From contig JBCKVB010000005.1 in NCBI GenBank assembly GCA_038924245.1, positions 1 through 53,839 on the forward strand: 53,839 nt of DNA, in the 5' to 3' direction. A program made the position numbers and the translations under genes. Shown here in pieces: positions 15,012 to 39,770 of the stretch. The notes under the pieces were generated by a model. That model was given only the letters and a program-made list of their open reading frames with translations. It was not told the origin of the DNA and made no database searches. The stretch's first letter is position 1. Each line of letters starts with the position of its first letter. The DNA comes from Gammaproteobacteria bacterium (GTDB lineage: Bacteria; Pseudomonadota; Gammaproteobacteria; SURF-13).

Positions 15012-15107
15012 GTGCAGGGACGCACTAGTGTCGCGGGAGGCACGACTCCAGGGATGGAGGAGGTAGAATCGCGTCGGGAACAGCGATCGAGGATGCCGGG
15101 AGCGACA
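15012..15107 (+). repeat. Intragenic repeat family, 96-bp variant, in yhdP
   Basis: Basic unit plus a 48-bp module; read as [32 protein letters not shown]. Confidence 0.92.
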
Positions 15108-15918
15108 ACCCGGACGCCGGGCGGCACGCGTGGGGACAGCCCGTGGCGGCTGCTGGACAGCGTGGATGTGCGGCTCGGGGTGCTGGAGCTTGCCGAACGG
15201 CGCTTTAATAATCTCAGCCTGCGCGCGCAGCGCAAGGCGCAGGGATGGGATGCCGATCTCGACGGCGCCGAGATCGCGGGCCAGGTGCAGTGGGTGCAGG
15301 GTGCCGCGCCGAGTTTAACCATGACCCTGCAACGGCTGCATTTCGCCCAACAAAGCGGCGAGCGCAAATCGGAATTTGATCCGCGCAACTGGCCGGCGCT
15401 GCATGTCAGCAGTCAAAGCGTGAAATACGGCGATGTTGATCTGGGCGGCCTCACGCTGGAGGCATCCAAACAGCCGAACGGCCTGCGCATCGAAAAATTG
15501 CAGTTGAGCTCGCCTAATCTGCAAGTACAAGGCACAGGGGAGTGGACGGTGACGGGCGACACGCAACAGTCGCGCTTGAACGCCGGCGTGGACAGCGGCG
15601 ATTTCGGCAAGGCGCTGGTCCAGCTCGGTTATGCCGAAACCGTTGCGGGCGGCAAGGCGCGCGTGGAGGTGTCGGCGCGGTGGCCTGGCGCGCCGGGCGA
15701 TTTTACCCTGGCGCGCTTAAGCGGCACACTCACGCTCAACGCCAAGCAAGGACGTTTCCTGGACATCGAGCCGGGCGCGGCGGTGCGCGTGTTCGGCCTG
15801 CTCAGCTTGCAGGCCTTGCCGCGCCGCCTCACCCTCGATTTCCGCGATCTGTTCGGCAAGGGCTTCAGCTTCGACAAGATTGAAGGCACCTTCACGCTGG
15901 ATAACGGCGACGCCTATA

Positions 15919-16249
15919 CCAATAATCTGGTCATGAATGGCCCCGCGGCGCGGATCAACGTTTCCGGGCGCACCGGCCTTGCCGCCAGGGATTACGATCA
16001 GATCGTCACCGTGACACCGGAAATCAGCGCGAGTCTGCCGCTGGCCGGGGCCTTGGGCGGTCCGGTCGGGATTGGCATCGGCACCGGCATCTACCTGTTT
16101 GAAAAGCTGTTCAAGCCGGGCATTGACGGTATCGCGCGCGTGCAATACACGGTGAAGGGTTCGTGGCAGGACCCGGTCATCGAGCCGCTCAAGTCCGGCG
16201 ACAAGACGCCGGATATACAGGCGGCGCCCGCCGGCTAAAGGGTTGCGGC
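15919..16249 (+). repeat. 331-bp direct repeat, copy 1 (yhdP 3' end)
   Basis: Identical by eye to 23207-23537. Confidence 0.95.
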
Positions 16250-16301
16250 AGTACATTCCAATCGAGGTATGAGTCTGAACGACGGGCGGCAAGGTATGAG
16301 T

Positions 16302-16529
16302 TCAGGCGGCATGTTTGGATCGACGATGGATGGATTGGAAGAGCTTGGTTCGTGCTTCGTTGAGCCTGCGGGCGGCTTCATTATCGCTTATCGCGGCGGC
16401 GATCGTGTCGAGTTGCCGGAAGGTCACGCCAGGCTTCAGAAAGTCCTTGGCCTTGGGCAATGATTTGAGTTTATCGTAGGGCGTCAGCCTATTTTTTAGC
16501 AGATAGCGCTTGCGGGTTTTGCCCTTGGG
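16302..16529 (-). pseudogene. Transposase C-terminal remnant (integrase-core IS type), with probable IS end at ~16250-16280
   Basis: Hand translation of a startless frame absent from the ORF track: PKGKTRKRYLLKNRLTPYDKLKSLPKAKDFLKPGVTFRQLDTIAAAISDNEAARRLNEARTKLFQSIHRRSKHAA*. It resembles IS transposase C-termini as recalled. Confidence 0.65.
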
Positions 16530-16684
16530 TGTGCTTAGTTACTTGTGTTCGTGTTGAAATGCGCCGCTCCACTCGGAGTCCTGGGGAAGCGATTCCAGCA
16601 GGTCCAGCCGTTCAGAGTGTGCCGCTGCGGCAAGGAACGGAACGGGGATTACGGTTACCGGCAGAGCCGGGCCGGGACGGGAGC

Positions 16685-16710
16685 CCGCCGGTCTGCCGGC
16701 GGTTTTATTT
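16685..16710 (+). terminator. Rho-independent terminator-like hairpin
   Basis: CCGCCGG-TCTG-CCGGCGG followed by TTTTATTT. Confidence 0.45.
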
Positions 16711-16732
16711 CAGCAGGGGTGGCAGGTAAATA

Positions 16733-18409
16733 TCACGGGGGGGTGATCTCCGCCACGAACACACCGCCCACGTTCACCTCCGGGAAACCATCTTCCTCCA
16801 AGGCAAAGCTTGCGGCCAACCCTTCTGCGGCCAGCCCGGTGAAGGTGCCGGTGATGTCGCCGCTGGCGGCATGGGCGTCATGGGTGTGGTCAAGGTGGGT
16901 GACGAAACCGGTAACAGGAATATCGAAAAAGGCCCCGGTGAAGTTCCACGTGGGATCACGGCCTACATCCCAAGAGTCGTCGCCAGACAACATCTTCAGG
17001 GATATGTATGTGAAGGAGCGCTCACCGGAAAAACTCACGTCGGCTTCGAAAATCAGGTCATCGGCGGCGCCGTCGCTACCTGTTCCTGCGAAACTGGTGG
17101 TGGTGGAGTAGGTGCCTGTGCCGGTTGTCAGAATGTTTGCGGTGGGGATGGCGGTGATCCAGTACACCGGGTGATTAATCGGAAACGGAGCGGTGTCGAT
17201 GAGGCTGTCGGGTTCCTCTGCTTCGATCAGTGCCAGCGTGGAGGAATCCAGATGCAAGACGGCGCCCGCCCAACTGCCCCAGACCACAGCATTACCACCT
17301 ATCACCTCCGTGTCTATCACGCTGCCTTCGCCGTCCCGCCGTAGCACGGCCAGCACCTCTCCACCGCTCGGGATAAAGCCGGTTATGTTACCTTCATCGA
17401 AGGCAAACAAGGGGCTGCCACCCGCACCGTCACTCGCGCGAGTCAGGCCGAGATGGCCGATTTCCCCCGGGAACACCACCACGCCAACACCAATCCGATC
17501 CAGGCTTGCGAGTTCGTCGGCGCTGAGGAGTTCGGTGGAGGGTACATTGGGGTTTGCGTTGGAGGTTACATTGGGGTTAAAGCTCGGGTCAATGACATCA
17601 ATGATGCCGTCGCCGTCCTTGTCCGCCATGGCGTCGTTGAACTCGATGGCGAAGTCGAACGCGAAGTCATCGAACCCCTCATCGGTAGTATCGGGCCCGG
17701 CGCCGCTGGTGTCTCCACCCGCGGGGTCGGGCGCGGTCTCATCGCTGGCTGCGTCCTCCGGCGCCTCGCCAGCGGCTGCCTCCTCCTCCGGCGCGACGCT
17801 GTCCAGCAGCGCCTGTGGCGGGGTGAGTTGCCCGATGGGCGGGGTGTCACTGCTCGTCACCTGGGCGAAGTTGTGGTCCGCCCCCTCCCCCAGGTCGAGG
17901 GTGCCGGCGTCATTGGTCACCGTGCCGGCACCCCCCCAGAAGGCCACCGTAAGCCCCGTGTCTCCCAACACCACCTCAAGGTCGGTGCCGCGCACGCCGA
18001 TGGTGGCGAGCGGCGTGGTGAGCTTGTACGAAGACGGATTTTCCTTGACGATCAGGCCGGTGATGGTGCGCAGGCCGCCTTTGACCAGCGTGGCGGCGAT
18101 GTTGTTGTTTCCTTTGGCGGTGGCGTCGAAGGAGTGACTGTCGACGCGGAACTCGGTGGCCGGGCGCAACGACATGAGCGCGCCGTCGATGAACCGGAGT
18201 TGGGCGCGGCTGTTGGCGCCGGTCTTCAGTAGCTCACCGGTGTAAAAGTCGGATTTGCGCTGCAAGGGACGCGCCACGCCGTCGGCCTGCAGCGCGACCA
18301 CCTCGCCGGAGGCGACGATGACCTGTCCGATCGGGGCCACCGCCCACGCCGGCAGGCTGAATATCAGCAGTGCGATAAGAACCCCCGCACTCTTGCCTAG
18401 GCTATGCAT
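16733..18409 (-). CDS. Secreted FecR-domain protein with acidic linker and probable C-terminal beta-barrel
   Basis: Signal peptide (PAWA); FecR-like L.FIDGALMSLRPAT..LVKGGLRTITG..TPLATIGVRGT; DKDGDG calcium-binding-like loop; Gly/Thr-rich beta-strand C-terminus. Confidence 0.75.
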   Translation of the reverse strand: MHSLGKSAGVLIALLIFSLPAWAVAPIGQVIVASGEVVALQADGVARPLQRKSDFYTGELLKTGANSRAQLRFIDGALMSLRPATEFRVDSHSFDATAKGNNNIAATLVKGGLRTITGLIVKENPSSYKLTTPLATIGVRGTDLEVVLGDTGLTVAFWGGAGTVTNDAGTLDLGEGADHNFAQVTSSDTPPIGQLTPPQALLDSVAPEEEAAAGEAPEDAASDETAPDPAGGDTSGAGPDTTDEGFDDFAFDFAIEFNDAMADKDGDGIIDVIDPSFNPNVTSNANPNVPSTELLSADELASLDRIGVGVVVFPGEIGHLGLTRASDGAGGSPLFAFDEGNITGFIPSGGEVLAVLRRDGEGSVIDTEVIGGNAVVWGSWAGAVLHLDSSTLALIEAEEPDSLIDTAPFPINHPVYWITAIPTANILTTGTGTYSTTTSFAGTGSDGAADDLIFEADVSFSGERSFTYISLKMLSGDDSWDVGRDPTWNFTGAFFDIPVTGFVTHLDHTHDAHAASGDITGTFTGLAAEGLAASFALEEDGFPEVNVGGVFVAEITPP

Positions 18410-18453
18410 GACATGACCCCCTGAGCCGCGCCCCTGTCGTCACGGGTATCATT

Positions 18454-19800
18454 TTAGTAAAAATCATAGCGCGCGGATAACTGTAATTGGGTGCGATCAA
18501 ACGCGAACAAAGAGATGTTGGATCGATTATCCAGATAAGTGACTTCGGTATTAAGGCCCCATGCGCGCGCCGGTTGCCAGCGCCAGCCGGCAGTGAGCTG
18601 TCTCAGGTGGTCTTTGCGCACCTGTCCAAAGCTGGGGTGCGGGGCATCGTGCTTCACTTTCTGCAGTGCAAGACTCGCATACAGGTTGTGGGTCGGCGTC
18701 ATGGCCCACTGGGCGCCGAACCGCGCGCCGTAATAGTCACGGCCATTGAAGTTGCCCGCGCTACGCTCGGCGCGCTCGTCGCCGTAGTAGCCACCGAGTG
18801 TGAGCGTGAGATTGGGTTTGCTCACCCTGTGCGTCCAGGCCCCGCCGAGCAGGGCCAGCCTGGCATTGCGTGTGTCCTGACCGGGGAAACTCAGCCGCCC
18901 GAGCTGGAGGAACAGAGTGCCGAGGTCGGCGCTGCCGAACGACCGCGTCCATTCGGGGTTGACGGATACCAGGCGGCGGAAGGCCTGGTCGTTGACATCG
19001 AATTGCTGCAGTTGGACGGGAATGCGGAATTTATCCTGCCCGTGCGCAAAGGCCGCGCCGCCCCTGAAGTCGAGCACGCGGGTGTCAGAGGCGTCGCTGC
19101 TGAAATTGTTTCGCTGCTCCGCGCGGAACGCCGCGAAGAGTCCGCGGGTTTTACTGAGCGCATGATCAACGCTCACGCCGAAACCGTAGCTCAGGAAATT
19201 GTCAGCCTGGGCGCGGCTCGTTTCGTTGAGCGTGACCGGCCCCAGCCCGGGGACTTCGACGGTGGTGTTGCTGGTGGCGCTGTTGATATTGCTGTCCGCG
19301 CCGGTCTTGACCTCGGCGTAGGCGCGGGTGCGCGTCTGCTGGGTGGCCTCGCGCCGCGCAATCTCATCCAGGAACTGGGTGATGCGGGCGCGCACGTTTT
19401 CCGGCGGATTGGCCGCAAGCACGGTGGAAAACTCGGCACGCGCGGAGGGGTAGTCATTCTGCAGAAAATAGGCGCGTCCCAACTCCAGACGCGCACGATG
19501 GTTCTGCGGCTCGGCAATCAACACGCGCTCTAGGGCGAACACCGCCTGGCCGGCATGCCCGGATTCCAGCGCGGCGAGGCCGAGCAGAAAGTCAAAATCA
19601 GGTTCGCCGCTGCCCTCGGCAACCCGCGCCTCTGCGAGCTCATAGGCCGCAGCATAATTGCCGTCCTGCATCAGCTTTTCGATATCGCTGTTATCAAGCG
19701 CAGCCGCGCTGCCCGCCGCAAGCCAGGCAAGCACGAAAAGGAGACTGCGTGATGATGGAAGTGCCATACAATTTGGCGCGGGTGGCCCGGAGTTTATCAC
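18454..19800 (-). CDS. TPR plus outer-membrane beta-barrel protein (DUF560/Slam-like)
   Basis: Signal peptide; TPR FDFLLGLAALESG..FALERVL..RARLELGRAYF; DSNINSA motif; alternating beta-strands ending in YDFY. Start may be ATG 19767. Confidence 0.7.
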   Translation of the reverse strand: MINSGPPAPNCMALPSSRSLLFVLAWLAAGSAAALDNSDIEKLMQDGNYAAAYELAEARVAEGSGEPDFDFLLGLAALESGHAGQAVFALERVLIAEPQNHRARLELGRAYFLQNDYPSARAEFSTVLAANPPENVRARITQFLDEIARREATQQTRTRAYAEVKTGADSNINSATSNTTVEVPGLGPVTLNETSRAQADNFLSYGFGVSVDHALSKTRGLFAAFRAEQRNNFSSDASDTRVLDFRGGAAFAHGQDKFRIPVQLQQFDVNDQAFRRLVSVNPEWTRSFGSADLGTLFLQLGRLSFPGQDTRNARLALLGGAWTHRVSKPNLTLTLGGYYGDERAERSAGNFNGRDYYGARFGAQWAMTPTHNLYASLALQKVKHDAPHPSFGQVRKDHLRQLTAGWRWQPARAWGLNTEVTYLDNRSNISLFAFDRTQLQLSARYDFY

Positions 19801-19897
19801 CCTGTTATTCTACCCACTGAACTTATACTATAAGACTCACGCCGGGGTCAATGAGCGTAGAGGGTGATTCGGGCGTCAGATCAAGGTCAATGTGAGC

Positions 19898-22102
19898 ATG
19901 CAAAACATAAAGCGCCGCCTCTACCCTGTTGCCGCGGGACTGACGCTGGTGGTCTTGTCGCTGACGGCTCAACTCGCCCCTGATACCTTTGTGGCCCAAC
20001 TGCTGCACCGGCTGGAATCCGTGGCCTATGATCTCAGACTCTCCGCCACATTGCCGGAGCAGGTGACGCCAGATGCGCGCATCGTGATTGTGGATGTGGA
20101 CGAAAAAAGCCTCAAGAATGAGGGCCGCTGGCCCTGGTCACGCGCCAAACTGGCTGAGCTGGTGGAGCGGTTGTTCGAGAACAAGGTGGCAGTGGCGGCC
20201 TTCGACGTGCTGTTCACCGAGCCGGAACGCAATCCGGCGCAGCAAGTCCTGGGTCAGATCGGCACGGCGGCGGATGCGCATCCTCTGTTGCAGGGCGCGG
20301 TGCGGCAAATGGATTACGACGGACAATTCGCGGCCAGCCTGCAGGGGCGCGACGTGGTGCTGGGTTATGTGTTTAATAACAGCACGGACAGGGTGGGTGA
20401 GCTTCCGCCGCCGCTGCAGGTTACGCACGATGCGGCCTTGCGCGATGCGGCGATCAAATCCATGCCGGGCTACAGCGCCAATCTCGCGCGCCTGCAACAG
20501 GCCGCGGGTCACGCGGGGTTTTTCACCATTGAGCCGGATAGTGACGGTATCCTGCGCCGCGCGGCGCTCATCCTGCGCCATGGCGACCGTGTTTATCCTT
20601 CCCTTGCGCTGGAGGCCGTGCGCGTGTTTTACGGCGCGGATACGGTGACGGTAAACACAGCATCACTGACCGGCAGCCGGCGCGCGGTGGAGTCGGTGAA
20701 CCTGGGTGACTACGCCATTCCCACCGATCTGGAAGGGCGCGTGATTATTCCCTACCGTGGCATGCACCCGGCGTTTACCTATGTCTCGGCGAGCGACGTG
20801 CTGCGCGGTGCGGTGGCGAAAGAGAAGCTGGAAAACACCATCGTGTTTGTCGGCACCACCGCAGCGGGTTTGCAGGACCAGCACGCGACGCCGATGCAGC
20901 CGGTGTATCCGGGCGTGGAGGTGCACGCCACCATCGCCGCCGCGATCCTGGATCAGCGCTTTCCCGCGCGGCCGTCATGGGCGGAGGGCGCGGACGTGAT
21001 GGTGTTGCTGACCCTGGGGCTCGCGCTCGCGTGGTGGCTGCCGTTGCTGAGCGCGCGGCGCGCGGTGGGGTTGAGCGCGTTCGCCGGTGTTGCACTGCTG
21101 AGCGCCAATCTGTGGGCATGGCAGGCAGAGGGTTGGGTGCTCGCGCTCGCTACGCCGCTGATTCTGGTGCTCACGCTTACGCTGCTCAATATGGCCTACG
21201 GTTTTCTGATCGAGGCGCGCGGGCGCGCGGAGCTCAAGGGCATGTTCGGCCAGTATGTGCCGCCGGAACTGGTTGAGGAGATGAATCGCAATCCGCAGAG
21301 CCTCGGCTTCGAGGGTGACAGCCGCGAGATGAGCATCCTGTTTTCCGATATACGCAGCTTCACCACGATCTCTGAGAGACTGAGCGCGAATGAACTGAAA
21401 AAACTGCTCAACCGGTTTTTCACGCCCATGACGCGCATCGTCTTTAACCGGCGCGGCACCATCGATAAATACGTGGGCGACATGATGATGGCGTTTTGGG
21501 GCGCGCCGCTGCGTGACGATGAGCATGCGCGCCACGCGCTCGAGGCGGCGTTTGATATGCTCGCCGCGCTGGAGGAAGCGCAGGCCGGATTCCGCGCATC
21601 GGGGTTGCCGGAGATCGACATCGGCATCGGCATCAACAGCGGCGTGGTCAATGTGGGCGACATGGGCTCGGAATTCCGTCGCGCCTACACTGTGATTGGT
21701 GATGCGGTGAATCTTGCATCACGTATTGAAAGTCTCACCAAATTTTATGGCGTGCGCCTGATCGTGGGCGAAAACACGCGGCACGGGCAAGACGACTTTA
21801 TTTTCCGCCGCCTCGACCGGGTGCGCGTGAAGGGGAAAAAAGAGGCGGTAACGATTTATGAGCCGCTATGCCGCAGGCACGAGGCGAGCGCGCAAGTGCT
21901 GGAAGAAACCGCGTGGCACGAACAGGCGCTGGACCATTACCTCGCGCGGCGCTGGGATGAGGCGGAGGCGCTGTTCGTGCAGTTGGCCGCGCGCCGGCCT
22001 GACGCCATTATTTATTCCCTGTACCTCGCGCGTATCCGGGAACTGCGCCTGCTTGCGCCGGAGGCGGAGTGGGATGGTGTGTACTCACAAAAAGACAAGT
22101 GA
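19898..22102 (+). CDS. CHASE2-domain class III adenylate cyclase
   Basis: IVIVDVDEKSL..GRWPWSR (CHASE2), PGVEVHA, three transmembrane segments, FSDIRSFT, DKYVGD, YTVIGDAVNLASRIE. Confidence 0.92.
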   Translation: MQNIKRRLYPVAAGLTLVVLSLTAQLAPDTFVAQLLHRLESVAYDLRLSATLPEQVTPDARIVIVDVDEKSLKNEGRWPWSRAKLAELVERLFENKVAVAAFDVLFTEPERNPAQQVLGQIGTAADAHPLLQGAVRQMDYDGQFAASLQGRDVVLGYVFNNSTDRVGELPPPLQVTHDAALRDAAIKSMPGYSANLARLQQAAGHAGFFTIEPDSDGILRRAALILRHGDRVYPSLALEAVRVFYGADTVTVNTASLTGSRRAVESVNLGDYAIPTDLEGRVIIPYRGMHPAFTYVSASDVLRGAVAKEKLENTIVFVGTTAAGLQDQHATPMQPVYPGVEVHATIAAAILDQRFPARPSWAEGADVMVLLTLGLALAWWLPLLSARRAVGLSAFAGVALLSANLWAWQAEGWVLALATPLILVLTLTLLNMAYGFLIEARGRAELKGMFGQYVPPELVEEMNRNPQSLGFEGDSREMSILFSDIRSFTTISERLSANELKKLLNRFFTPMTRIVFNRRGTIDKYVGDMMMAFWGAPLRDDEHARHALEAAFDMLAALEEAQAGFRASGLPEIDIGIGINSGVVNVGDMGSEFRRAYTVIGDAVNLASRIESLTKFYGVRLIVGENTRHGQDDFIFRRLDRVRVKGKKEAVTIYEPLCRRHEASAQVLEETAWHEQALDHYLARRWDEAEALFVQLAARRPDAIIYSLYLARIRELRLLAPEAEWDGVYSQKDK

Positions 22103-22106
22103 CCTT

Positions 22107-22141
22107 GGAAAGCTCTGAATAAGTCCGTCCCGGACTTCTCA
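22107..22141 (+). repeat. Isolated left end of the IS5-like MITE
   Basis: GGAAAGCTCTGAATAAGTCCGTCCCGGACTTCTCA matches 5526-5559 and overlaps the stop codon of the phosphodiesterase gene. Confidence 0.8.
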
Positions 22142-22918
22142 ATGCCGGGCGAGCGTATAACGCTTGCCGGATTCCAGCAGCATACCGCGCGTGCTATGCA
22201 GCAGCGGTTCGATGACGTCGCGCAGCTCTTGCGCATATTGCGGTTTGAGGTGCGAAATCCAGAGTTCCGGCATGGGCGAGAACAACGCGAGGTCGCGCCT
22301 CAGCATCGACGGCGTCATGTGTCCGGTGATGTGCGCGAGTTCCTCCAGATGGTCCGGATAAGACAGTTCGCAAATCAGTATGTCCAGCGGACCCGCCTCG
22401 GCAAGATGGCGCAGCGAACGCGTGTCGCCGGTGAAGGCCGCGCGGACGCCGTCGCGCGCGAGAATATAGGATAGCCCCGGCACGGTGTGATCCATGGGCA
22501 CGCCGGTGATGTGCCAGCCGTCGATCTCGATGGTTTCGTGTTCCGCGAGTTCCTGAAAACGCACCAACATATTTTCCGGCTGTTCAAACAGCGGCAGCTC
22601 GGAGAAGTCGGGATAAATCTGCCAGTTGAAGACATGCTGTTTGAGGGCGGCCAGGGTCTCGGCGCGCGCATAAAGCGTCACCGGCAGTGTGCGCGCGAGA
22701 TAAATGCGCTCCAGAAACAGCGGCAGCAGCGCGATGTGATCCTGGTGCGAGTGGGTAAGGAACACATGATCGATTTTCAGCATGGCTTCGGCGGAGAGCG
22801 TGCCCAGCCCGGTGCCGCAATCGATGAGGATGGTGTCGCCGAGGCGGAACGAGGTGGTAAAGAGATTGTCGCCGACGCCGCCGCTGCAACCCAGGATATG
22901 CAACGTAGATTTCTTCAT
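22139..22918 (-). CDS. Metallo-beta-lactamase-fold cyclic nucleotide phosphodiesterase (class II-like)
   Basis: LGCSGG, LIDCGTG, THSHQDH (HxHxDH), HTVP, FTGDT, HMTP, SHLKP; convergent with the cyclase; start ATG 22918. Confidence 0.8.
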   Translation of the reverse strand: MKKSTLHILGCSGGVGDNLFTTSFRLGDTILIDCGTGLGTLSAEAMLKIDHVFLTHSHQDHIALLPLFLERIYLARTLPVTLYARAETLAALKQHVFNWQIYPDFSELPLFEQPENMLVRFQELAEHETIEIDGWHITGVPMDHTVPGLSYILARDGVRAAFTGDTRSLRHLAEAGPLDILICELSYPDHLEELAHITGHMTPSMLRRDLALFSPMPELWISHLKPQYAQELRDVIEPLLHSTRGMLLESGKRYTLARH

Positions 22919-23206: not shown

Positions 23207-23537
23207 CCAATAATCTGGTCATGAATGGCCCCGCGGCGCGGATCAACGTTTCCGGGCGCACCGGCCTTGCCGCCAGGGATTACGATCAGATCGTCACCGT
23301 GACACCGGAAATCAGCGCGAGTCTGCCGCTGGCCGGGGCCTTGGGCGGTCCGGTCGGGATTGGCATCGGCACCGGCATCTACCTGTTTGAAAAGCTGTTC
23401 AAGCCGGGCATTGACGGTATCGCGCGCGTGCAATACACGGTGAAGGGTTCGTGGCAGGACCCGGTCATCGAGCCGCTCAAGTCCGGCGACAAGACGCCGG
23501 ATATACAGGCGGCGCCCGCCGGCTAAAGGGTTGCGGC
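23207..23537 (+). repeat. 331-bp direct repeat, copy 2 (duplicated yhdP 3' end)
   Basis: Identical by eye to 15919-16249; explains ORF 23221-23526. Confidence 0.95.
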
Positions 23538-23638: not shown

Positions 23639-23890
23639 CCGTTCGAGGAAATCAAATGAAACATTCGTTAGTGATTGCTGCTGCTGCGCTTGCCGTGCTG
23701 TTGGCGGCCTGCTACGGTAAAGAAGAGCAACCCGCCGCGCCTGCGGCTGAAGCCCCGGCTGTCGAAGCCCCGGCTGTCGAAGCCCCGGCTGCTGAGCCGG
23801 CGCGCCCATAACTGATTTTTCATCGCCGAGCTCCTAGGCTCCAGCAACTGCCCCTTCCCAGGGGCAGTCTGGCGCGGCGGACATGGAAGC
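23639..23890 (+). pseudogene. Degenerate partial duplicate of the 5' half of the cytochrome c lipoprotein gene
   Basis: Same RBS, signal peptide and linker as ~23901-24178; stop at 23809-23811; 15-bp tandem repeats; no heme motif. Confidence 0.75.
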
Positions 23891-23917
23891 CGCTCCCGCG
23901 CCGTTCGAGGAAATCAA

Positions 23918-24433
23918 ATGAAACATTCGTTAGTGATTGCCGCTGCGCTTGCCGTGCTGTTGGCGGCCTGCGGTAAAGAAGAGCAGCCCGCTGTCCCCGC
24001 CGCTCCCGTGGAACAAGCCGCGCCCGCGGCTGAAGCCCCTACTGCCGAAGCGCCCGCCACCGAGCCTGCCGCTGAGCCTGCCGCACCTGCTCCCGCGGAA
24101 GGCGCCCCCGCCCCGAGTTCCGAGGCTCCAGCAACTGCCCCTACCCAGGGGCAGTCTGGCGCGCCGGACATGGAAGCTGGCATGGCGCTTGCCAAGAGCA
24201 GCGGTTGCTTCGCCTGCCATCAGATTGAAGTGAAACGCGTCGGCCCGACCTGGCAAGATGTGGCCAAGAAATACCAGGGCAATGCGGACGCCAGGAAAAT
24301 ACTGGTGGAGCAGATCAAGAAGGGCGGCGTTGCGGGCTGGCAGATGGGCGTGATGCCTCCGTATTCTCCGCGCGTACCCGATGCCGATATCGAAAAGCTG
24401 GCGGAATTCATCATTGCGTTGAATAAAGGCTAA
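23918..24433 (+). CDS. Lipid-anchored monoheme cytochrome c (c551/c552-like) with long Pro/Ala/Glu linker
   Basis: Lipobox LLAAC, CFACH heme motif, VGPTW, GVMPP Met ligand. Confidence 0.88.
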   Translation: MKHSLVIAAALAVLLAACGKEEQPAVPAAPVEQAAPAAEAPTAEAPATEPAAEPAAPAPAEGAPAPSSEAPATAPTQGQSGAPDMEAGMALAKSSGCFACHQIEVKRVGPTWQDVAKKYQGNADARKILVEQIKKGGVAGWQMGVMPPYSPRVPDADIEKLAEFIIALNKG

Positions 24434-29090: not shown

Positions 29091-29957
29091 ATGATCCGGG
29101 CCAATACCACACGCGTCAGCCTGCAGCCCGCTTACGTGTTGCACCATCGCCCCTACCGGGACAGCAGTTTGCTGCTGGAGATATTCACGCCGGACCATGG
29201 CCGCGTGGGTTTGGTGGCGCGCGGCGCGCGCTCGCCCAAGTCGCGCCTATACGGGGTGCTGCAACCGTTTCAGCCGCTGCTCATCTCGTGGGTGGGGCGC
29301 GGCGAACTCGCCACGCTGAGCGGCGCGGAGGCGAACGGCCCGCCGCAACGCCTGCAAGGGAAAAGCGTCATCAGCGGTTTTTATATCAATGAACTGCTGC
29401 TGCGCTTGCTGCACCGCCACGATCCGCATGCCGCGCTGTTTGACGGCTACGCCCGGACCTTGCCGCTGCTGGCGCAAGCGGTCGCTCCCGGCGTCCTCGA
29501 TCGCTGTTCCCGACGCGATTCTACCTCCTCCATCCCTGGAGTCGTGCCTCCCGCGACACTAAGCCTTCCCTGGCTGGCAGAACAGCGCGCGCTACGTATC
29601 TTTGAAAAGCATTTGTTAAAAGAGATCGGTTATGCGCTGGTGCTGGGTCACGAAGTGGAAAATGGCGCGCCCATCGAGCCGGACCAGAGGTACACTTACC
29701 GGCTGGAGCAGGGGCCGGTGCGATCCGATGGGGCAGGACACGGCATCGCGCTGCACGGTGCGAGTTTGTTGTCTCTTATGAATGAACAGTTGAGCGATGA
29801 ACAAAGTCTGCGTGAGGTTAAATCGCTGATGCGCGCCGCGCTCGCCCTGTATCTCGGCGACAAGCCGTTGCAAAGCCGCGCCTTGCTGGTCAATTTACAG
29901 AAAACCTTGAACCTGCCCAGGAGCAGCATCGCAGTGCAGGCGGTTGACGCCGCATGA
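29091..29957 (+). CDS. recO: DNA repair protein RecO (with in-frame repeat insertion)
   Basis: [29 protein letters not shown]; era-recO-pdxJ synteny. Confidence 0.95.
29480..29575 (-). repeat. Intragenic repeat family, 96-bp variant, in recO
   Basis: Read as [31 protein letters not shown]. Confidence 0.92.
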
Positions 29958-30760
29958 CGGCGCGCTCATCCATTTTGCTGGGGGTCAATATTGACCACAT
30001 CGCCACGCTGCGCCAGGCGCGCGGAACGCGCTATCCTGATCCGGTACAAGCCGCCATCGAGGCCGAGCAGGCAGGCGCGGACGCGATCACGTTACACCTG
30101 CGCGAAGACCGGCGCCACATCCAGGAGCGCGACGTGGAAATGTTGCACGGCATTTTGCAGACGCGCATGAATCTGGAGATGGCGGTGACCGAGGCGATGC
30201 TGGCGTTCGCCGCGCGCATCAAACCGCGGGACTGCTGCCTGGTGCCGGAGCGGCGCGAGGAGCTGACCACCGAAGGCGGGCTGGACGTGGCGGGCCAGCC
30301 GGAACGCATCGGCGCGGCCTGCGCGCGCTTGCGGGACGCGGGTGTGCGCGTGTCGCTGTTCATTGACGCTGATAACCATCAAGTGGATGCGGCGGCGCGC
30401 GCGGGCGCACCGGTGATTGAAATCCACACCGGCCATTATGCCGATGCGGAAGACGCAGCCCTGCGTGAGCAAGAGTTGCAGCGCATCGTGCGCGCCATGG
30501 AGCATGGAAAAAATCTCGGCCTGCAAGTCAACGCCGGACATGGCTTGAATTATCACAACGTGCAGGCCATCGCGGCCTTGCCCGGTATCAGCGAACTCAA
30601 CATCGGTCACGCCATCGTGGCGCGCGCGCTGTTCACCGGGTTCGGCGCGGCGGTGCGCGAGATGAAACAGTTGCTGCGCGACGCACAGGGAAGAGCGCCA
30701 GCGAAGGGTTCAGCGATAGCGAAGGGTTCTGCTAGTGTCGCGGGAGGCAGGACGCCGTGA
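29954..30760 (+). CDS. pdxJ: Pyridoxine 5'-phosphate synthase (repeat-derived C-terminal tail)
   Basis: [35 protein letters not shown]. Confidence 0.97.
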
Positions 30761-30766
30761 GCGACC
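30683..30766 (+). repeat. Intragenic repeat family, 84-bp variant, forming the pdxJ C-terminus and stop
   Basis: Basic unit plus two 18-bp modules; GGA changed to TGA within the repeat. Confidence 0.85.
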
Positions 30767-32065: not shown

Positions 32066-32068
32066 GAT

Positions 32069-32189
32069 GCTGGAAAAGTCCATCCCTGTCCTTTTCCAGC
32101 GCGTAAAGCAAAAAATGCGATTTTTGCTTTACGCCATTTTTAAAATGCAGACGCAGTGTCCTGAAAATGACGGCACGTCCTTGTGCCGC
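32069..32189. repeat. Multi-hairpin intergenic element related to the MITE at 5526
   Basis: GCTGGAAAAG..CATCCCTG..CTTTTCCAGC; GCGTAAAGCAAAAA..TTTTTGCTTTACGC; CATTTT..AAAATG; CGGCAC-GTCCTT-GTGCCG. Confidence 0.65.
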
Positions 32190-32194
32190 ACACT

Positions 32195-32995
32195 ATGAAC
32201 ATTTTGGTATTCGACATCGAAACCGTCCCCGACGTGGCGGGCGGACGCCGGCTTTATGCGCTCGATGGCCTCACGGACAAACAGACCGCCGAGGCGATGT
32301 TCAACGTGCGCCGCCAGGAGACCGGCGGTTCAGATTTTCTCCGCCACCATTTACAACGCATCGTGGCGATCTCAGCGGTGCTGCGCACGCGCGATCATGT
32401 GAAGGTGTGGTCTCTGGGTGAGCCGGATTCACCTGAAAAAGAGCTGATCGAACGCTTTTTCGACGGGATTGAAAAGTACACGCCGACGCTGGTGTCCTGG
32501 AACGGCGGCGGGTTTGATTTGCCGGTGCTCAACTATCGCGCGCTGTTGCACGGCGTCGCCGCGCCGCGTTACTGGGAGACGGGCAAGGAAGACCCCGGCT
32601 TCCGCTACGATAATTATCTCAGCCGGTTTCATTGGCGCCATACCGATCTGATGGACGTGCTTTCCTCTTACCAGGCGCGCGCCACCGCCCCGCTGGATGG
32701 AATCGCCGCCCTGCTGGGCTTTCCCGGCAAGCTGGGCATGGACGGGTCGCAGGTGTGGGAGCGCTATCTGCAGGGCGAGATCGCCGCGATCCGCGATTAC
32801 TGTGAGACCGACGTGCTCAATACCTATCTCATTTACCTGCGCTTCGAACTGATACGCGGCCATTTGACGGCCGAACACTACGCAACAGAGTGTCAGCTTC
32901 TGCGCGATGTGCTGGCCAAGGAAGACAAACCCCACCTGCGCGAATTTCTTGCCGCTTGGCGGTCGCTCCCGGCGTCCTGCCTCCCGCGACACTAA
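32195..32995 (+). CDS. PolB-like 3'-5' exonuclease (DEDD family)
   Basis: VFDIETVPD, LVSWNGGGFDLPVL, HTDLMD, YCETDVLNT. Confidence 0.88.
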   Translation: MNILVFDIETVPDVAGGRRLYALDGLTDKQTAEAMFNVRRQETGGSDFLRHHLQRIVAISAVLRTRDHVKVWSLGEPDSPEKELIERFFDGIEKYTPTLVSWNGGGFDLPVLNYRALLHGVAAPRYWETGKEDPGFRYDNYLSRFHWRHTDLMDVLSSYQARATAPLDGIAALLGFPGKLGMDGSQVWERYLQGEIAAIRDYCETDVLNTYLIYLRFELIRGHLTAEHYATECQLLRDVLAKEDKPHLREFLAAWRSLPASCLPRH

Positions 32996-33008
32996 GCCAT
33001 CCATGGCT
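32961..33008 (-). repeat. Intragenic repeat family, 48-bp unit, supplying the exonuclease C-terminus and stop
   Basis: GGTCGCTCCCGGCGTCCTGCCTCCCGCGACACTAAGCCATCCATGGCT; read as [10 protein letters not shown]. Confidence 0.92.
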
Positions 33009-33036
33009 GTCGCTGATCCACGCAACCTTGCGCCTC

Positions 33037-33067
33037 CTTGCTACTTGTAACTTGTCACTTGCTACTG
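33037..33067 (+). repeat. Heptamer tandem repeat (CTTGYNA)4
   Basis: CTTGCTA CTTGTAA CTTGTCA CTTGCTA directly upstream of rlmD. Confidence 0.7.
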
Positions 33068-33074
33068 TTTTTCA

Positions 33075-34406: not shown

Positions 34407-34451
34407 TACTCAAGGAACCTCTGATATGTCAGAGGTTCCTTGAGTATCAAC
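34402..34451. terminator. Perfect 23-bp inverted repeat between convergent rlmD and purL, with MITE-end core
   Basis: GTTGATACTCAAGGAACCTCTGA-TATG-TCAGAGGTTCCTTGAGTATCAAC. A terminator role is inferred from position; there is no U tract. Confidence 0.6.
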
Positions 34452-37400
34452 CAATCCACTTGCGCGCGTTGCGGAACATGTGCAGCCACGGGCTCTCCTC
34501 GCCCCACTCTTCGGGATGCCAGGAGAGGGCCATCGTGCGCACCACGCGCTCCGGGTGCGGCATCATGATGGTGTAGCGCCCGTCGGGCGTGGTGAGGCCC
34601 GCGATGCCGAGCGGCGAGCCGTTGGGATTGGCGGGGTAGGTTTCGGTGGGCTGGCCATAATTATCCGCCCAGCGCAGTGCGACGATACCGGCATCGAGTG
34701 CTTGTTGGGCGCTGCCGCCGGAACGAAATTCGGCGCGGCCCTCGCCGTGCGCCACCGCGAGGGGCAGTTGCGCGCCCGCCATGTCTTGCAAGAACAGCGA
34801 GGGCGATTTCGGGATTTGCACCAGCGACAGGCGCGCCTCGAATTGCCCGGAAAGGTTGCGCGCGAACCCCGGCCAGTGCTCCGCGCCGGGGATGAGTTCA
34901 TGCAGGTGCGACATCATCTGGCAGCCGTTGCAGATGCCGAGACCAAAGCTATCCTTGCGATTAAAGAAGGCGCTGAATTCGTCGCGCGCGCGCGCGTTGA
35001 ACAAGATTGAATTGGCCCAGCCACGCCCCGCGCCGAGCACGTCGCCGTAGGAAAATCCGCCCGGCGCGGCGAGGCCCTGAAAGTCGCGCAGGGAAACGCG
35101 GCCTTCCAGGATATCGCTCATGTGCACGTCCACACAGGCGAAACCCGCGCGGTCGAACGCCCAGGCCAGCTCCACCTGGCCGTTCACGCCTTGTTCGCGC
35201 AGGATGGCGACGCGCGGGCGCACGCCTTGTTTGATATACGGCGCCGCGGCATCGTGATCCGGGTCGAAGCTGAGCTTTACGTTCAGACCGGGGTCGGCGG
35301 CATCAAGCAGGGCATCGTACTCCTGCTGCGCGCACGCCGGGTTGTCGCGCAGCGACTGCATGCGATAAGAAGTTTCCGACCAGGCGCGGTGCAAGTTCAC
35401 GCGCGTGTCTGAAAGAACCGTTTTGCCGTGGTGCGTGAATACAATGTGATCCGTGCCATTCAAGGCGCCGCACGCGTGGCTGCATTCGCCGAGTCCTGCC
35501 TGCTCCAACGCCTCAAGCACCGCCTGCTTGTCTGCCATACGCGTTTGCACCACGGCGCCGAGCTCTTCATTAAACAGCGCGCCAGTCGCTCCCGGCGTCC
35601 TCGATCGCTGTTCCCGACGCGATTCTACCTCCTCCATGCATGGAGTCGTGCCTCCCGTGACACTAAGCCGTCCCTGGCTGGCGCAAGGGCCGGGTACGAG
35701 CGTATCCAGATGCACGGTGACGCCGGCATGACCCGCGAAGGCCATCTCGCATACGGCGGTAAACAGGCCGCCGTCGGAGCGGTCGTGATAGGCGAGCAGC
35801 AGGCCTTTTTCATTGAGCGATTGAATGGCGTTAAAGAACGACTTGAGTAATTCAGCATCCGGCGCATCCGGCACGTCGCGCACCATTTGGCCATACACCT
35901 GTGCCAGCGCCGAACCGCCCAAGCGGTTTTTGCCCAGGCCCAGATCAATCACGATGAGCGCGGTCTCGCCTTGATTAGTGCGTAGTTGCGGCGTAAGCGT
36001 CTGGCGGCAATCCAGCACCGGCGCGAAGGCGCTCACGATGAGCGACAACGGCGCGGTGACGGATTTTTCCTCGCCCTGCTCGCGCCACACGGTTTTCATG
36101 GAGAGCGAATCCTTGCCCACGGGGATGGCGATGCCGAGTTGCGGGCAGAGTTGCATGGCGACGGCGTGCACGGTGTCGTACAACGCGGCGTCCTCGCCGG
36201 GGTGGCCCGCGGCGGCCATCCAGTTGGCGGAGAGCTTGATGGCGGAAATACCGGCGATGCGCGCGGCGGCGATGTTGGTGATGGCCTCGGCGACCGCCAT
36301 GCGCCCCGAAGCGGCGGGGTTGATGAGCGCGAGCGGCGCGCGTTCGCCCAGCGCCATCGCCTCGCCGGTGTGGGTGTCAAAACCGCTGCCGGTGACGCCC
36401 GCATCCGCGACCGCGACCTGCCACGGGCCCACCATTTGATCGCGCGTGACCAGGCCGCCCACCGTGCGGTCGCCGATGGTGATGAGAAAGCGCTTGTCCG
36501 CCACGGTGGGGAAACGCAGCACGCGTAGCGCGGCCTGGTGCAGGTCAATGCGCGTATCAAATAGCGGCAGCGCTGGGGTATCAGTGTGCCGCACATCGCG
36601 CAGCATTTTCGGCGGTTTGCCGAGTAGCATGGGCAGCGGCAGGTTGACCGGCTCATTATGGAAATGCGCGTCGCTCACGAGGAGTTGTTGTTCGGCGCTG
36701 ACGCTGCCCACAACGGCGTAAGGACAACGCTCGCGCGCGCACAATACCTTGAATTCATCCAGGCGTTCGGCGGACACCGCCAGCACGTAACGCTCCTGCG
36801 CCTCGTTGCTCCAAATCTGCATGGGCGACATGCCGGGATCGTCGTTCAAAATCGCGCGCAGCTCGATACGCGCTCCGCGTTCCGCGCCGTGCACCAGTTC
36901 CGGCAGCGCATTGGACAGGCCGCCCGCGCCGACATCGTGTATGGAGAGGATGGGATTGCCGTCACCCATCTGCCAGCAGCGGTCTATGACCTCTTGGCAG
37001 CGGCGCTGCATCTCGGCGTTGTCGCGCTGCACCGAGGCGAAGTCGAGCGTCTCGTCACCGCTGCCCGCTGCGATAGAAGACGCCGCGCCGCCGCCGAGGC
37101 CAATCAGCATGGCCGGCCCGCCCAGTACAATGAGCGCGCTGCCTTGCGGCAAATCATGCTTCTCCACATGCATGGGAGAAATGTTGCCCACGCCGCCCGC
37201 CAACATGATGGGCTTGAGATAGCCGCGCGACTCCATGCCCTGTTGCGCCGGGAATTGCGCCTCGAAGGTGCGGAAATAGCCGCAGATGTTGGGACGGCCG
37301 AATTCATTGTTGAACGCCGCCGCGCCTAGCGGCCCCTCCAGCATGATTTGTAGACTCGACGCGACGTGCGCCGGTTTGCCGTAATCGAATTGCTCCCACG

Positions 37401-38541
37401 GCTGCGGGGCATCGGGGATACGCAGGTGCGAGACGGAAAAGCCGCACAAACCCGCCTTGGGCTTCGCGCCGCGCCCGGTCGCGCCTTCATCGCGGATTTC
37501 GCCGCCGCTGCCGGTGGCCGCGCCAGGATAAGGCGAGATCGCGGTGGGGTGGTTGTGCGTCTCCACCTTCATCAGGATGTGCGCGTACCCCCTGTGCTGA
37601 CGATATTCGTTCTTTCCGCCTGCGGGGAAAAAGCGCGCCGTCTCGAAACCCTCGATCACCGAGGCGTTGTCTTTATACGCCGACAGGATGCCATGCGGAT
37701 TTTTTTCCGAGGTGTGGCGGATCATGGCGAACAGGGATTTTTCCCGTGGCTTGCCGTCTATGATCCAGTCGGCGTTGAAAATCTTGTGGCGGCAGTGCTC
37801 GGAATTCATCTGCGCGAACATCATCAGTTCCGCGTCGCTGGGGTTGCGCTTGAGGCGCAGGTAGTTGTCCAGCAGATAGGCGATTTCGTCCGCGCTGAGC
37901 GCGAGCCCAAGTTGCCGGTTGGCGTCCAGCAGCGCCTGTTTTCCATCGGTTAAAATATCAACAGTGGTCAGCGGCGCGGGTTGAGACTGAGAGAACAGGG
38001 CGTGCGCCGCCTTGGGGTCGCGGCACACCTGCTGCGTCATGCGGTCGTGCACGAGTGGGGCGATCAAATCAATCTCGCCCTGTTGCAGGGGCGCGGCGTT
38101 TTGCGTGGTGAAATAATAAGCCGTGCCGCGCTCGATGCGCTTGATCTTGTCCAGGCCGCACAAACGCAGGATGTCGCTCGCCTTGCTCGACCAGGGCGAG
38201 CGCGTACCGGCGCGCGGTGTCACCAGCAACGACGTGCAGGGACGCACTAGTGTCGCGGGAGGCACGACTCCAGGGATGGAGGAGGTAGAATCGCGTCGGG
38301 AACAGCGATCGAGGACGCTGGGAGCGACCGGGGGAGTTGCGACGACGGATTCGCTTGCGTGCGCCGCGAGGATTTTTACCAACGCCGCGTTTTCGTCCGG
38401 CGCGAGCGCGCCGGTCAGCTCGGCGAAATACACCCACTCGGCGCGCAGTTGTGTGATGCGCGGGGCAGCCGCCCGCATCGCGCGCAGCAGTTTGTCGAGG
38501 CGGAAACCAGACAGCGCCGCCGCGCCGCGCAGCCGTAACAT
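34447..38541 (-). CDS. purL: Phosphoribosylformylglycinamidine synthase, large type (two in-frame repeat insertions)
   Basis: [43 protein letters not shown]. Confidence 0.98.
35584..35679 (-). repeat. Intragenic repeat family, 96-bp variant, in purL
   Basis: Read as [32 protein letters not shown] just before ALFNEELG. Confidence 0.92.
38234..38329 (+). repeat. Intragenic repeat family, 96-bp variant, in the purL N-terminal domain
   Basis: Read as [32 protein letters not shown] just before LLVTPR. Confidence 0.92.
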
Positions 38542-38558
38542 TCTTGCTTGAATCGCGT

Positions 38559-39770
38559 TTATTTGAGTTGTTCGTGCAGCAGGGTCAGTATCCGGCTGGA
38601 GGTTTCCGAGTTGTCGCGCACGCCATCCTTGTTGAGCACCTCGATGCGCGTGCTGTCCGCGGTCGTCCCCAGCGACCCGCCTCCCGCGACACTAGTAGAA
38701 CCCTTCGCTGGCGCTCTTCCCTGTACGTCGTCGCTCGCCACGCTGACCAGATATTGTTCGGTCGGCGGCTTTTTGTCGTCCTTGCCCCAGAATTTCATCC
38801 TGGACATGAGGCCTTCTTTTTTCTCCTGATCCTTGAGCGGATCGGCGTAACGCACGTAGTACAGGCCGCGTGAGCGGTCACGGTCTTCCACGGTGAAGCC
38901 GATGCGATCCAGCGCGAGGCCGGTGCGGCGCCAGGCGCGTGAAAAATCCTCTTGCAGGGCGAGCGCGGCGCCGCCGTTGCCGTCTTTGGTCAGCGTGGCG
39001 CGCGGCGTTTCGGTCTCGCGCGCCAGCAGGGTCTTGGTTTTCTTTTCGTCCACGCCGAAGAACACCATCAGGTGGTTAAGCATCTCCGCCTCCAGCTCCG
39101 GGTCGGAAGGGCGCGGCTGCCAGATGGTCGAGTCGCCATGCGCCACTTCCTCCACGCCGCTGTGGCTCAAGAAAAGTTCGGTGCCGCCCGCCTCCTGGGT
39201 GCGCTCCAGGCGCACGCGGAACTTGTCGCGCGTCGCGGCGGAGTAGAGATTTTCGAACACCTTGCTCAGCACCGAGCGGATGGGATCTTTCGGAATGTCG
39301 GCGCGGTTTTCCAGCCAGTCGGTCTCCATGATGCCGATGCGTGGGTCTTCCTGCTTGATGAGATAACCGTTTTGCAGCCAGAATTCGCGCACCTTGGGCC
39401 ACCACTGATCGGGCTCGCCCTGCATCATCAGCCAGCGCTTGTTGCCGTCGCGCTCCACGCGCACGTTGTCCTGGCCGGGCAGGACATTCTCGCGCTGCGC
39501 CACTTGCGGGTCGCTGCGCTCGCCGCTGTACACGGAATAGGTCGCCGTGCCGCCGGGGCTGATGTCGGGCACGGCGAGCGTGTCGTCCACGGTGGAGCTG
39601 GTGAGGTCGGGCGGTACCTCCAGCGGCGGGAGCGAGGAGCTCTTTTTATATTCCACGCGCTTTTCCGGGTCCACCTCATCCAGCTTGGCGGTGATCGCCT
39701 TGCACCCGCCGAGCGCAGCGAGCGTTAACAACAAAAGTCCGCAATGTAACAGCCGTTTTCTAAAATGCAT
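38559..39770 (-). CDS. bamC: Outer membrane protein assembly lipoprotein BamC (with in-frame repeat insertion)
   Basis: Lipobox [42 protein letters not shown]; downstream of dapA. Confidence 0.9.
38661..38726 (-). repeat. Intragenic repeat family, 66-bp variant, in bamC
   Basis: Basic unit plus one 18-bp module; read as [22 protein letters not shown]. Confidence 0.85.

What the first reader, a model, noticed from the sequence alone, without database searches (positions are those of the whole stretch)
15012..38726. Every size variant is a multiple of three and five of six frames are translated
Seen in sequence: measured between the same end points, copies are 48, 66 (+18 bp, bamC), 84 (+2x18 bp, pdxJ), 96 (+48 bp ACGACTCCAGGGATGGAGGAGGTAGAATCGCGTCGGGAACAGCGATCG; yhdP, recO, purL x2) and 105 bp (+57). 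Host proteins read them as [10 protein letters not shown].., YRDVRMSREAGR.., [11 protein letters not shown].., [10 protein letters not shown].. and SRPQHPA..DTSASLH. The one unused frame has TAG in the consensus. Inference: the element lineage is selected for being translatable, i.e. adapted to living in coding sequence. The pdxJ tail copy and the intergenic copy also keep 3n lengths.
Basis: partly seen in the sequence, partly recalled or inferred. Interest (0 to 1): 0.78.

Follow-up and report, generated by a model that had tools for sequence, protein, structure and literature searches.

The report
In-frame 51-base hairpin repeat family
A tiny mobile DNA element of exactly 17 codons has copied itself into many housekeeping genes of this bacterium without breaking them; that kind of element is already known from Rickettsia and other bacteria, and its stop-codon content shows no special adaptation to being translated.

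Summary
The repeat is real. This scan noted the same family before on other pieces of this genome (e1-2881839, e1-2785121).

In this genome plus 1.40 Mb of relative G007:
- 109 of 110 canonical copies are multiples of three.
- The one 50-nt copy, and two more in other genomes, lie outside genes.
- 64 of 110 copies sit in frame inside genes.

Nested copies and a filled versus empty purL site show that insertion adds exactly 51 nt with no target duplication.

The stop-codon part of the claim fails:
- The spacer CTAG or CTAA puts TAG in two frames, not one.
- The consensus has 4 of 6 frames open, against 4.6-4.8 in shuffles.
- Stop-bearing spacers are as common inside genes as outside.
- Frame use is very uneven: +1 35, -0 18, +2 7, -2 5, -1 1, +0 0 of 66.
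- An extragenic sister family is mostly open in all six frames yet almost never in genes.

Verdict: a new family of a known kind (RPE-like). The 3n length is real, probably through lineage sorting. Stop avoidance is not supported.

The parts
9297..9347 (-). 51-nt copy inside nadD, read in frame -1 ([18 protein letters not shown]). Its spacer CCAAT has no TAG.
13263..13370 (+). 108-nt composite inside the yhdP N-terminal ORF. A 51-nt unit (13294-13344, frame +1) is nested in an inverted unit, with 6 extra nt.
14819..14869 (+). 51-nt copy inside the yhdP C-terminal ORF, frame +1 ([18 protein letters not shown]).
15008..15106 (+). 99-nt copy inside yhdP, frame +1. It is a 51-nt unit with a 48-nt two-hairpin piece in the loop of hairpin 2.
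29481..29579 (-). 99-nt copy inside recO, frame -0.
30679..30765 (+). 87-nt copy (left arm +2x18) forming the 3' tail of pdxJ. The pdxJ stop lies inside it, and it sits just before acpS.
32962..33012 (-). 51-nt copy at the 3' end of ORF 32183-32995. It is read in frame -1, and the TAA of its TTAGT spacer ends the ORF.
35585..35683 (-). 99-nt copy inside purL, frame +1. It adds 33 residues that are absent from the 12 other genomes aligned.
38230..38328 (+). 99-nt copy inside purL, frame -0. It is private to this genome.
38662..38730 (-). 69-nt copy (left arm +18) inside the bamC-like gene, frame +1.
45064..45114 (-). 51-nt copy inside coaE, frame -0. Its spacer is CCAGT and all six frames are open.
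46441..46548 (-). 108-nt composite in the C-terminal tail of a MutT/ThiE-type Nudix gene. The inner unit 46467-46517 is read in frame +2.
47423..47530 (-). 108-nt composite between argJ and the Nudix gene. This is the intergenic copy.

Best explanation
What it is. A family of 51-nt non-autonomous mobile elements of the REP/RPE kind. The layout is: tag YGAC; hairpin 1 (4-5 bp stem that covaries, loop AGGGAY); spacer YTAGT or YTAAT; hairpin 2 (GTCGC-GGGA-GGC-AGGAC-GCC-GGGA-GCGAC).

Shown here. It inserts without target duplication and adds exactly 51 nt, or 17 codons. Larger forms arise by 18-nt module expansion, by a 48-nt relative sitting in the loop of hairpin 2, or by one copy nesting in another. 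Insertions are recent: they are private to single genomes.

Inferred.
- It moves as single-stranded DNA by a tyrosine (HUH) transposase supplied in trans, and prefers sites like C-Y-T-G^C-G.
- Because the unit and every increment are 3n, insertions in genes keep the frame.
- Copies that land in the two frames with TAG are purged by the host.
- The Arg-rich frames +2 and -2 are largely purged too. This leaves mainly [17 protein letters not shown] (+1) and [17 protein letters not shown] (-0).
- In a genome where stop-to-stop ORFs picked by my own gene finder cover about 85% of the DNA, only 3n variants can spread widely. The lineage is therefore sorted for 3n length, but it shows no tuning of stop codons.
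For: Unit and period: tandem spacing of 51 nt.

Lengths:
- nhmmer, which tolerates indels, gives 36x51 and 9x69 in G000, and 64x51, 10x69, 5x52 and 1x50 in 1.40 Mb of G007.
- After curation, 109 of 110 canonical copies are 3n.

Exact insertion without duplication:
- Seven nested forms (2 of 102 nt, 5 of 120 nt), of which I read six by eye, restore the canonical host element when 51 nt are removed.
- G002 purL minus its 51 nt is colinear with G003 purL, with junction ambiguity of at most 2 nt.

Recency: in PurL of 13 genomes, two 33-residue inserts are private to G000 and one 17-residue insert is private to G002.

Spread: the canonical core is in 17 of 19 same-family genomes and in 1 of 21 genomes of other families searched. 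The reversed control pattern gave 0 hits.

Structure: all four stem pairs are kept in 99 of 108 distinct copies, against a shuffle mean of 53.5 and maximum of 63.

Target: flanks are alike in 62 intragenic and 45 other copies. Position -4 is C, -3 is C or T, -1 is G, +1 is C (88 of 107) and +2 is G.

Frames: +1 35, -0 18, +2 7, -2 5, -1 1, +0 0 of 66. A target-site model alone predicts 17.7/11.8/20.0/15.5 for the four open frames, chi-square P about 9e-6.

Share in genes: 64 of 110, against 66.6% of random positions by the same rule, P = 0.07.
Against: - No transposase is tied to the element. The three RAYT-like Y1 genes of G000 carry their own inverted repeats. Their best NCBIfam match, REP-associated tyrosine transposase, scores 66 bits, below its 80-bit cut-off. 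G001 (98% complete) and G013 (97% complete) hold copies but gave no Y1 match with this query.
- The left-flank consensus is weak for an IS200/IS605-type target.
- The extragenic sister family is also mostly 3n (20 of 25 copies), so length may partly reflect structure.
- Copies are young and indels are rare, so '45 of 46 non-genic copies are 3n' is a weak test.
- Genomes and copies are related, so the P values overstate.
- The gene calls are my own codon-score classifier and not an annotation.
Confidence: 0.6

Rival explanations
1. Host filtering only. The founder happened to be 51 nt (a 1 in 3 chance). All bigger forms are built from 3n parts or arose inside genic copies where only 3n changes survive. 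Nothing about the lineage is selected.
For: - There is no stop depletion.
- Stop-bearing spacers are equally common inside and outside genes.
- Stem subtypes are alike in both compartments.
- The non-3n copies, 3 of 3, are outside genes.
- Nested forms are 3n by construction.
Against: - At least four size changes that are not nesting (+18 left arm, +18 or +15 in hairpin 2, +48, +6) are all 3n.
- In the extragenic sister family the same modules vary by 1 nt: 21/22, 29/30 and 39/40.
- The difference from the best explanation is partly one of words.
Confidence: 0.22
2. The length is set by structure, not translation. The two hairpins and their modules have preferred sizes needed by the enzyme or by folding, and 51 or 69 nt being 3n is incidental.
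For: - The sister family, almost all extragenic, is 3n in 20 of 25 copies. Two different module combinations (21+30 and 22+29) both give 51, and 39+30 gives 69.
- Hairpin 1 covaries and hairpin 2 is nearly invariant.
Against: - A 52-nt form with three different stems persists in the sister family.
- 50-nt canonical copies exist, so size is not fixed by structure.
- Structure does not explain why non-3n forms are missing from genes.
Confidence: 0.1

Closest known systems
Rickettsia palindromic elements (RPEs; Ogata et al. 2000, 2002, as summarised in passages of PMC10969869 and PMC1779305 that I read)
   Same: Small palindromic repeats found both between genes and in frame inside unrelated housekeeping genes. 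They add peptide segments, and families proliferate in particular lineages.
   Different: RPEs are 100-150 bp, in AT-rich Alphaproteobacteria, and each family encodes one conserved peptide. This element is 51 nt, GC-rich, in Gammaproteobacteria, and is read in four to five frames on both strands. Sequence relatedness was not tested.
Intragenic GTAG- and CGTC-tagged REPs (Di Nocera, De Gregorio and Rocco 2013, PMC3733652; abstract, section 6 and passages read)
   Same: A short tagged hairpin repeat. The reverse complement of the left end reads CGTC(G/A). Some copies lie inside known genes, inverted dimers occur, and no dedicated transposase is known for the CGTC class.
   Different: The described CGTC families have 8-9 bp stems, 4-5 nt loops and a CCA-like tail, and most are in Alphaproteobacteria. 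Here stem 1 is 4-5 bp with a 6-nt loop, a second and different hairpin is part of the unit, and over half of the copies are intragenic. The figures with the family consensus sequences and Additional file 3 (intragenic REPs) were not seen.
IS200/IS605-type elements and their non-autonomous derivatives (PATEs); features recalled from general knowledge
   Same: Hairpins near both ends, no terminal inverted repeats, no target duplication, and some sequence preference at the insertion point.
   Different: No cognate Y1 transposase is linked, the left-flank motif is only a weak consensus, and the element is far smaller than described PATEs. Strand bias relative to replication cannot be tested in a draft genome.

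Membership tests
Rickettsia palindromic elements (RPE) | In-frame residence in functional protein-coding genes as well as in intergenic DNA | tested here: met
   64 of 110 copies have coding flanks in one open frame. PurL stays open over 1364 codons with two inserts.
Rickettsia palindromic elements (RPE) | Size of 100-150 bp and match to the RPE family profiles | tested here: not met
   The unit is 51 nt. Size is as quoted in PMC1779305. The RPE profiles were not available, so sequence membership was not tested.
CGTC-tagged REPs (Di Nocera 2013) | Unpaired terminal CGTC (or TGTC/CCTC) tag beside the hairpin | tested here: met
   Tags are CGAC in 48 and TGAC in 29 of 108 distinct copies, followed by G in 97 of 108. 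The reverse complement therefore reads CGTCG or CGTCA.
CGTC-tagged REPs (Di Nocera 2013) | Stem of 8-9 bp starting with A-T pairs, loop of 4-5 nt, CCA-like tail (section 6 of PMC3733652) | tested here: not met
   Stem 1 has 4 covarying pairs (5 in some copies) and a 6-nt loop.
REP/RAYT system (REPINs) | 5' GTAG tag and copies flanking a RAYT gene | tested here: not met
   There is no GTAG tag. The three Y1 genes of G000 are flanked by their own inverted repeats. Only one sister-family half-element lies downstream of the C14 gene.
IS200/IS605-derived PATE | No target-site duplication and no terminal inverted repeats | tested here: met
   Nested copies and the G002 versus G003 purL site. Junction ambiguity is at most 2 nt.
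IS200/IS605-derived PATE | Insertion 3' of a fixed tetra- or pentanucleotide, and ends matching an autonomous element with tnpA | tested here: inconclusive
   The left flank shows only a consensus C-Y-T-G, with C at -4 in 61 of 107 and G at -1 in 57 of 107. No autonomous element with these ends was found.
MITE | Terminal inverted repeats plus target-site duplication | tested here: not met
   The two ends are different hairpins and there is no duplication.

The most novel reading that the evidence does not exclude
A REP-like lineage has become a specialist of coding DNA. A 17-codon element with no target duplication survives in genes almost as often as chance placement would put it there, after loss of the two stop-bearing frames. 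It was sorted at the level of element lineages for 3n length. Its closest sister lineage stayed extragenic and is free to vary by single bases. This would be a natural pair for testing lineage-level selection on selfish DNA in small, gene-dense genomes.
Probability: 0.3. Interest if true: 0.6.

Novelty: new member of a known kind. Interest (0 to 1): 0.4.

Why it matters
The result shows how far a gene-dense genome can tolerate selfish DNA inside essential proteins such as PurL, RecO, NadD, CoaE and YhdP. It also gives a clean natural contrast. One family is always 3n and more than half genic. A sister family varies by single bases and is extragenic. With complete genomes and population data, that contrast could separate host filtering from selection among element lineages. 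For annotation, the 17- to 33-residue inserts explain odd gaps in alignments of housekeeping proteins from this group.

Tried and rejected
- Collection scan. Many hits were chance matches in other phyla, so it could not serve as a census. I used only about 50 true copies from it, classed with the G000 codon model, which is approximate for other genomes.
- First detector. My first loose structural detector gave many false long 'elements'. I curated these by eye.
- purL 99-nt sites. The DNA is too diverged from the congeners to fix the junctions.
- Transposase link. I found no association.
- Rfam. No family matched in the window.
- Sequencing runs. No RNA holder was listed, so nothing can be said on expression.
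- Contigs of four metagenome runs. They mostly break at the copies. Two low-depth joints in X3 fit alleles lacking the copies. One runs 29481 to 29583 with 2 letters between, a net -99. The other runs 38659 to 38737 with 8 letters between, a net -69. Both were laid at 88% likeness and may come from other organisms, so I treat them as a weak hint only.
- Script errors. Searches stopped on errors of my own and were rerun.
- Not done. I made no protein structure prediction, so I do not claim that the inserts lie in surface loops.
Full report
**1. What is there**

The window (62% GC; contig C5 of a 1.38-Mb draft genome, 78 contigs, 82.6% complete) holds 13 matches to the 12-nt core GTCGCGGGAGGC at up to one mismatch, against 1.12 expected.

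Lining up all copies gives this unit:
- tag CGAC (also TGAC, CGCC, CGAT);
- hairpin 1, with a 4-bp stem and loop AGGGAY;
- spacer TAGT or TAAT;
- hairpin 2, GTCGC-GGGA-GGC-AGGAC-GCC-GGGA-GCGAC.

Tandem copies are spaced 51 nt apart, so the unit is 51 nt. They correspond to 51, 69, 87, 99 and 108 nt.

The larger forms are built as follows:
- The 69- and 87-nt forms carry one or two extra 18-nt modules in the loop of hairpin 1.
- A second 69-nt form carries +18 in hairpin 2.
- The 99-nt form carries a 48-nt piece in the loop of hairpin 2. That piece has two small hairpins of its own. A copy from another genome keeps its second stem through different bases (L031).
- The 108-nt form is a unit nested in an inverted unit, plus 6 nt.

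**2. Host genes**

NCBIfam names the host ORFs as nadD, yhdP (in two ORFs), recO, pdxJ (followed by acpS), coaE, a MutT/ThiE-type Nudix gene, argJ and, weakly, bamC. purL is shown by homology.

**3.

I laid the whole genome. I also fetched 1.40 Mb (contigs C1-C21 whole and the first 20 kb of C22) of a 99%-complete relative of the same family, G007. The tiles were chosen without regard to the element.

An indel-tolerant nhmmer search with a model of 31 canonical copies gave full-length hits of these sizes:
- G000: 36 of 51 nt and 9 of 69 nt.
- G007: 64 of 51 nt, 10 of 69 nt, 5 of 52 nt and 1 of 50 nt.

I classed each copy with a codon log-odds model trained on each genome. 'Intragenic' means one frame open through the copy, with at least 45 nt of ORF on each side and a coding score of at least 5 on both sides. 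By the same rule, 1992 of 3000 and 2007 of 3000 random positions are intragenic.

After curation:

| Family | Copies | Multiple of three | Intragenic |
|---|---|---|---|
| Canonical (A) | 110 | 109 | 64 |
| Sister (B) | 25 | 20 (five are 52 nt) | 2 |

The single 50-nt copy of family A is not intragenic.

Family B has hairpin 2 as GYCGC-GGGCGC-AGGGAT-GCGCAGGA-GCGRC and often sits beside a terminator-like hairpin. Fifteen of its 23 non-intragenic copies are open in all six frames. Its modules vary by single bases: left arm 21 or 22 nt, hairpin 2 of 29 or 30 nt, and expanded arm of 39 nt in 3 of 4 cases. In family A the expanded arm is 40 nt in 18 of 18 cases, plus two of 58 nt.

By Fisher tests, A versus B gives 3e-6 for gene residence and 8e-4 for 3n length. 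Copies and genomes are related, so these values overstate.

In about 50 further copies from other Gammaproteobacteria MAGs, lengths were 51, 84, 99 and 102 nt, and twice 50 nt. Both 50-nt copies lay outside ORFs with coding signal.

**4. Stops and frames**

CTAG is its own reverse complement. The usual spacers CTAGT and CTAAT therefore put TAG or TAA in frame +0 and TAG in frame -1.

| Form | Open frames observed | Open frames in shuffles (mono- and dinucleotide) |
|---|---|---|
| 51-nt consensus | 4 of 6 | 4.78 and 4.63, P(>=4) about 0.90 |
| 99-nt | 3 | 2.95-3.11 |
| 69-nt | 4 | 3.57 and 2.79 |
| pdxJ 87-nt copy | 1 | about 3 |

So there is no stop depletion beyond composition. Stop-bearing spacers are found in 50 of 62 intragenic and 35 of 45 other copies (P = 0.81). 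Stem subtypes are spread alike in both compartments.

The 66 intragenic copies are read as +1 35, -0 18, +2 7, -2 5, -1 1 and +0 0. In the window five frames are indeed used. Frame -1 is used only by a copy without TAG, and by one copy whose TAA ends the host ORF. Frame -2 appears only in the inverted arm of the 108-nt composite.

**5. How it inserts**

Seven nested forms in G007 (two of 102 nt, five of 120 nt) were listed. I read six of them by eye. Each restores a canonical host element when 51 nt are taken out, with at most 1 nt of ambiguity.

In purL, G002 carries a private 51-nt copy. Removing it leaves a sequence colinear with G003, base for base in length, with at most 2 nt of junction ambiguity. 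Insertion therefore adds exactly 17 codons and makes no target duplication.

Flanks are alike in intragenic and other copies. Position -4 is C, -3 is C or T, -1 is mostly G, +1 is C in 88 of 107, and +2 is G in 63 of 107. The element's own reverse strand holds such a site (CCTCCCG^CGAC), which explains the frequent inverted nesting.

A position-weight model built from the 45 non-genic flanks and run over confident genes predicts 17.7/11.8/20.0/15.5 for frames +1/+2/-0/-2, against 35/7/18/5 observed (chi-square P about 9e-6). Target preference therefore explains part of the skew. The rest is most simply selection against the Arg-rich peptides of frames +2 and -2. That last step is inference.

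**6. Mobility and age**

An alignment of PurL from 13 genomes shows two 33-residue inserts private to G000. Its three congeners lack them. It also shows a 17-residue insert private to G002 at another site.

The canonical core occurs in 17 of 19 genomes of the same family, from 1 to 107 matches each, and in 1 of 21 genomes of other families searched. A reversed control pattern gave none.

**7. Structure**

Hairpin 1 covaries. Pair 6-17 is TA 62, CG 34, GC 7. Pair 7-16 is AT 75, GC 16, CG 10. All four pairs are kept in 99 of 108 distinct copies, against a mean of 53.5 and a maximum of 63 in 1000 shuffles. Hairpin 2 hardly varies. The 51-nt DNA folds better than shuffles, with z of -2.5 and -2.9 on the two strands. 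No Rfam family matches the window.

**8. What moves it is not known**

G000 has three Y1 (PF01797) genes. One I scanned is closest to REP-associated tyrosine transposase at 66 bits, below the 80-bit cut-off. It has a DnaA-C-like tail.

Two of the three Y1 genes have inverted repeats of their own just outside the gene. The third lies at a contig end. Only one sister-family half-element lies downstream of the C14 gene.

With that protein as query, G001 and G013 (98% and 97% complete, 18 and 17 core matches) gave only DnaA-like matches. G017 (107 core matches, 80% complete) gave only a fragment. Several genomes without the element do have such genes. This is 'not found with this query', not absence.

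**9. Reading**

The 3n observation is real and more than chance. At least four size changes that are not nesting are all 3n, at roughly 1 in 81 if lengths were random. Only 1 of 110 copies departs.

The most economical account is lineage sorting. An element that adds whole codons and no duplication can persist in the roughly 85% of this genome covered by ORFs. Variants that break the frame can live only between genes, where the three 50-nt copies and the 52-nt sister forms are found. I did not test that note.

One point remains open. The extragenic sister family is itself 3n in 20 of 25 copies.

**10. Place among known things**

This is the phenomenon of Rickettsia RPEs and of intragenic tagged REPs (PMC10969869 and PMC1779305, passages; PMC3733652, abstract, section 6 and passages). 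Two full-text searches for 3n or in-frame palindromic elements brought up nothing on this family. That is a limited search and not proof that it is unpublished. I could not see the figures or Additional file 3 of PMC3733652, which list intragenic REPs and could include a relative.

The scan itself has described this family twice on other pieces of this genome (e1-2881839, e1-2785121). It has also noted the same kind of element in at least 27 genomes.

Noticed in passing
window 12068-14347 and 14382-16238: yhdP is in two ORFs. The YhdP profile TIGR02099 matches positions 378-686 in the first ORF and 704-1259 in the second. It may be a split or broken gene, or two genes.
   Followed up: no
window 15919-16218 and 23207-23506: An exact 300-nt duplicate lies 7.3 kb apart (D1). 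One copy is the 3' end of the yhdP C-terminal ORF. It could be a segmental duplication or an assembly effect.
   Followed up: no
window 23639-24177: Two adjacent look-alike small ORF starts (98% identical 46-mers) are followed by 15-nt tandem repeats GAAGCCCCGGCTGTC and a shared 65-nt block (D4, D13, D19, D20).
   Followed up: no
window 5533-5578, 22115-22160, 32070-32115: A third repeat family of long-stem hairpins sits just after genes (D10). Similar hairpins follow the sister-family copies in G007.
   Followed up: partly
G007 contigs (L123-L202), e.g. C7, C9, C13, C17; G000 contig C2 and C8: An extragenic sister repeat family of 51 or 52 nt has a different hairpin 2 and is mostly open in all six frames. 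It is often next to terminator-like hairpins.
   Followed up: partly
G000 contig C14 669-1640, C11 16428-17282, C53 1-616 (L001-L003): Three RAYT-like Y1 transposase genes. The C14 gene, the only one scanned, has a DnaA-C-like C-terminal domain. The C14 and C11 genes are flanked by their own short inverted repeats.
   Followed up: partly
L205 (G002 purL), L208, L209: Relatives carry their own private inserts. G002 PurL has a 17-residue copy at another site. The G004 and G009 PurL ORFs are 1340 and 1392 codons against 1295-1316 in most others, which in the alignment is largely extra N-terminal ORF length.
   Followed up: partly
window as a whole: 13 of the 68 genome-wide core matches lie in this 54-kb contig, which is 3.9% of the assembly. 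This local density is unexplained.
   Followed up: no
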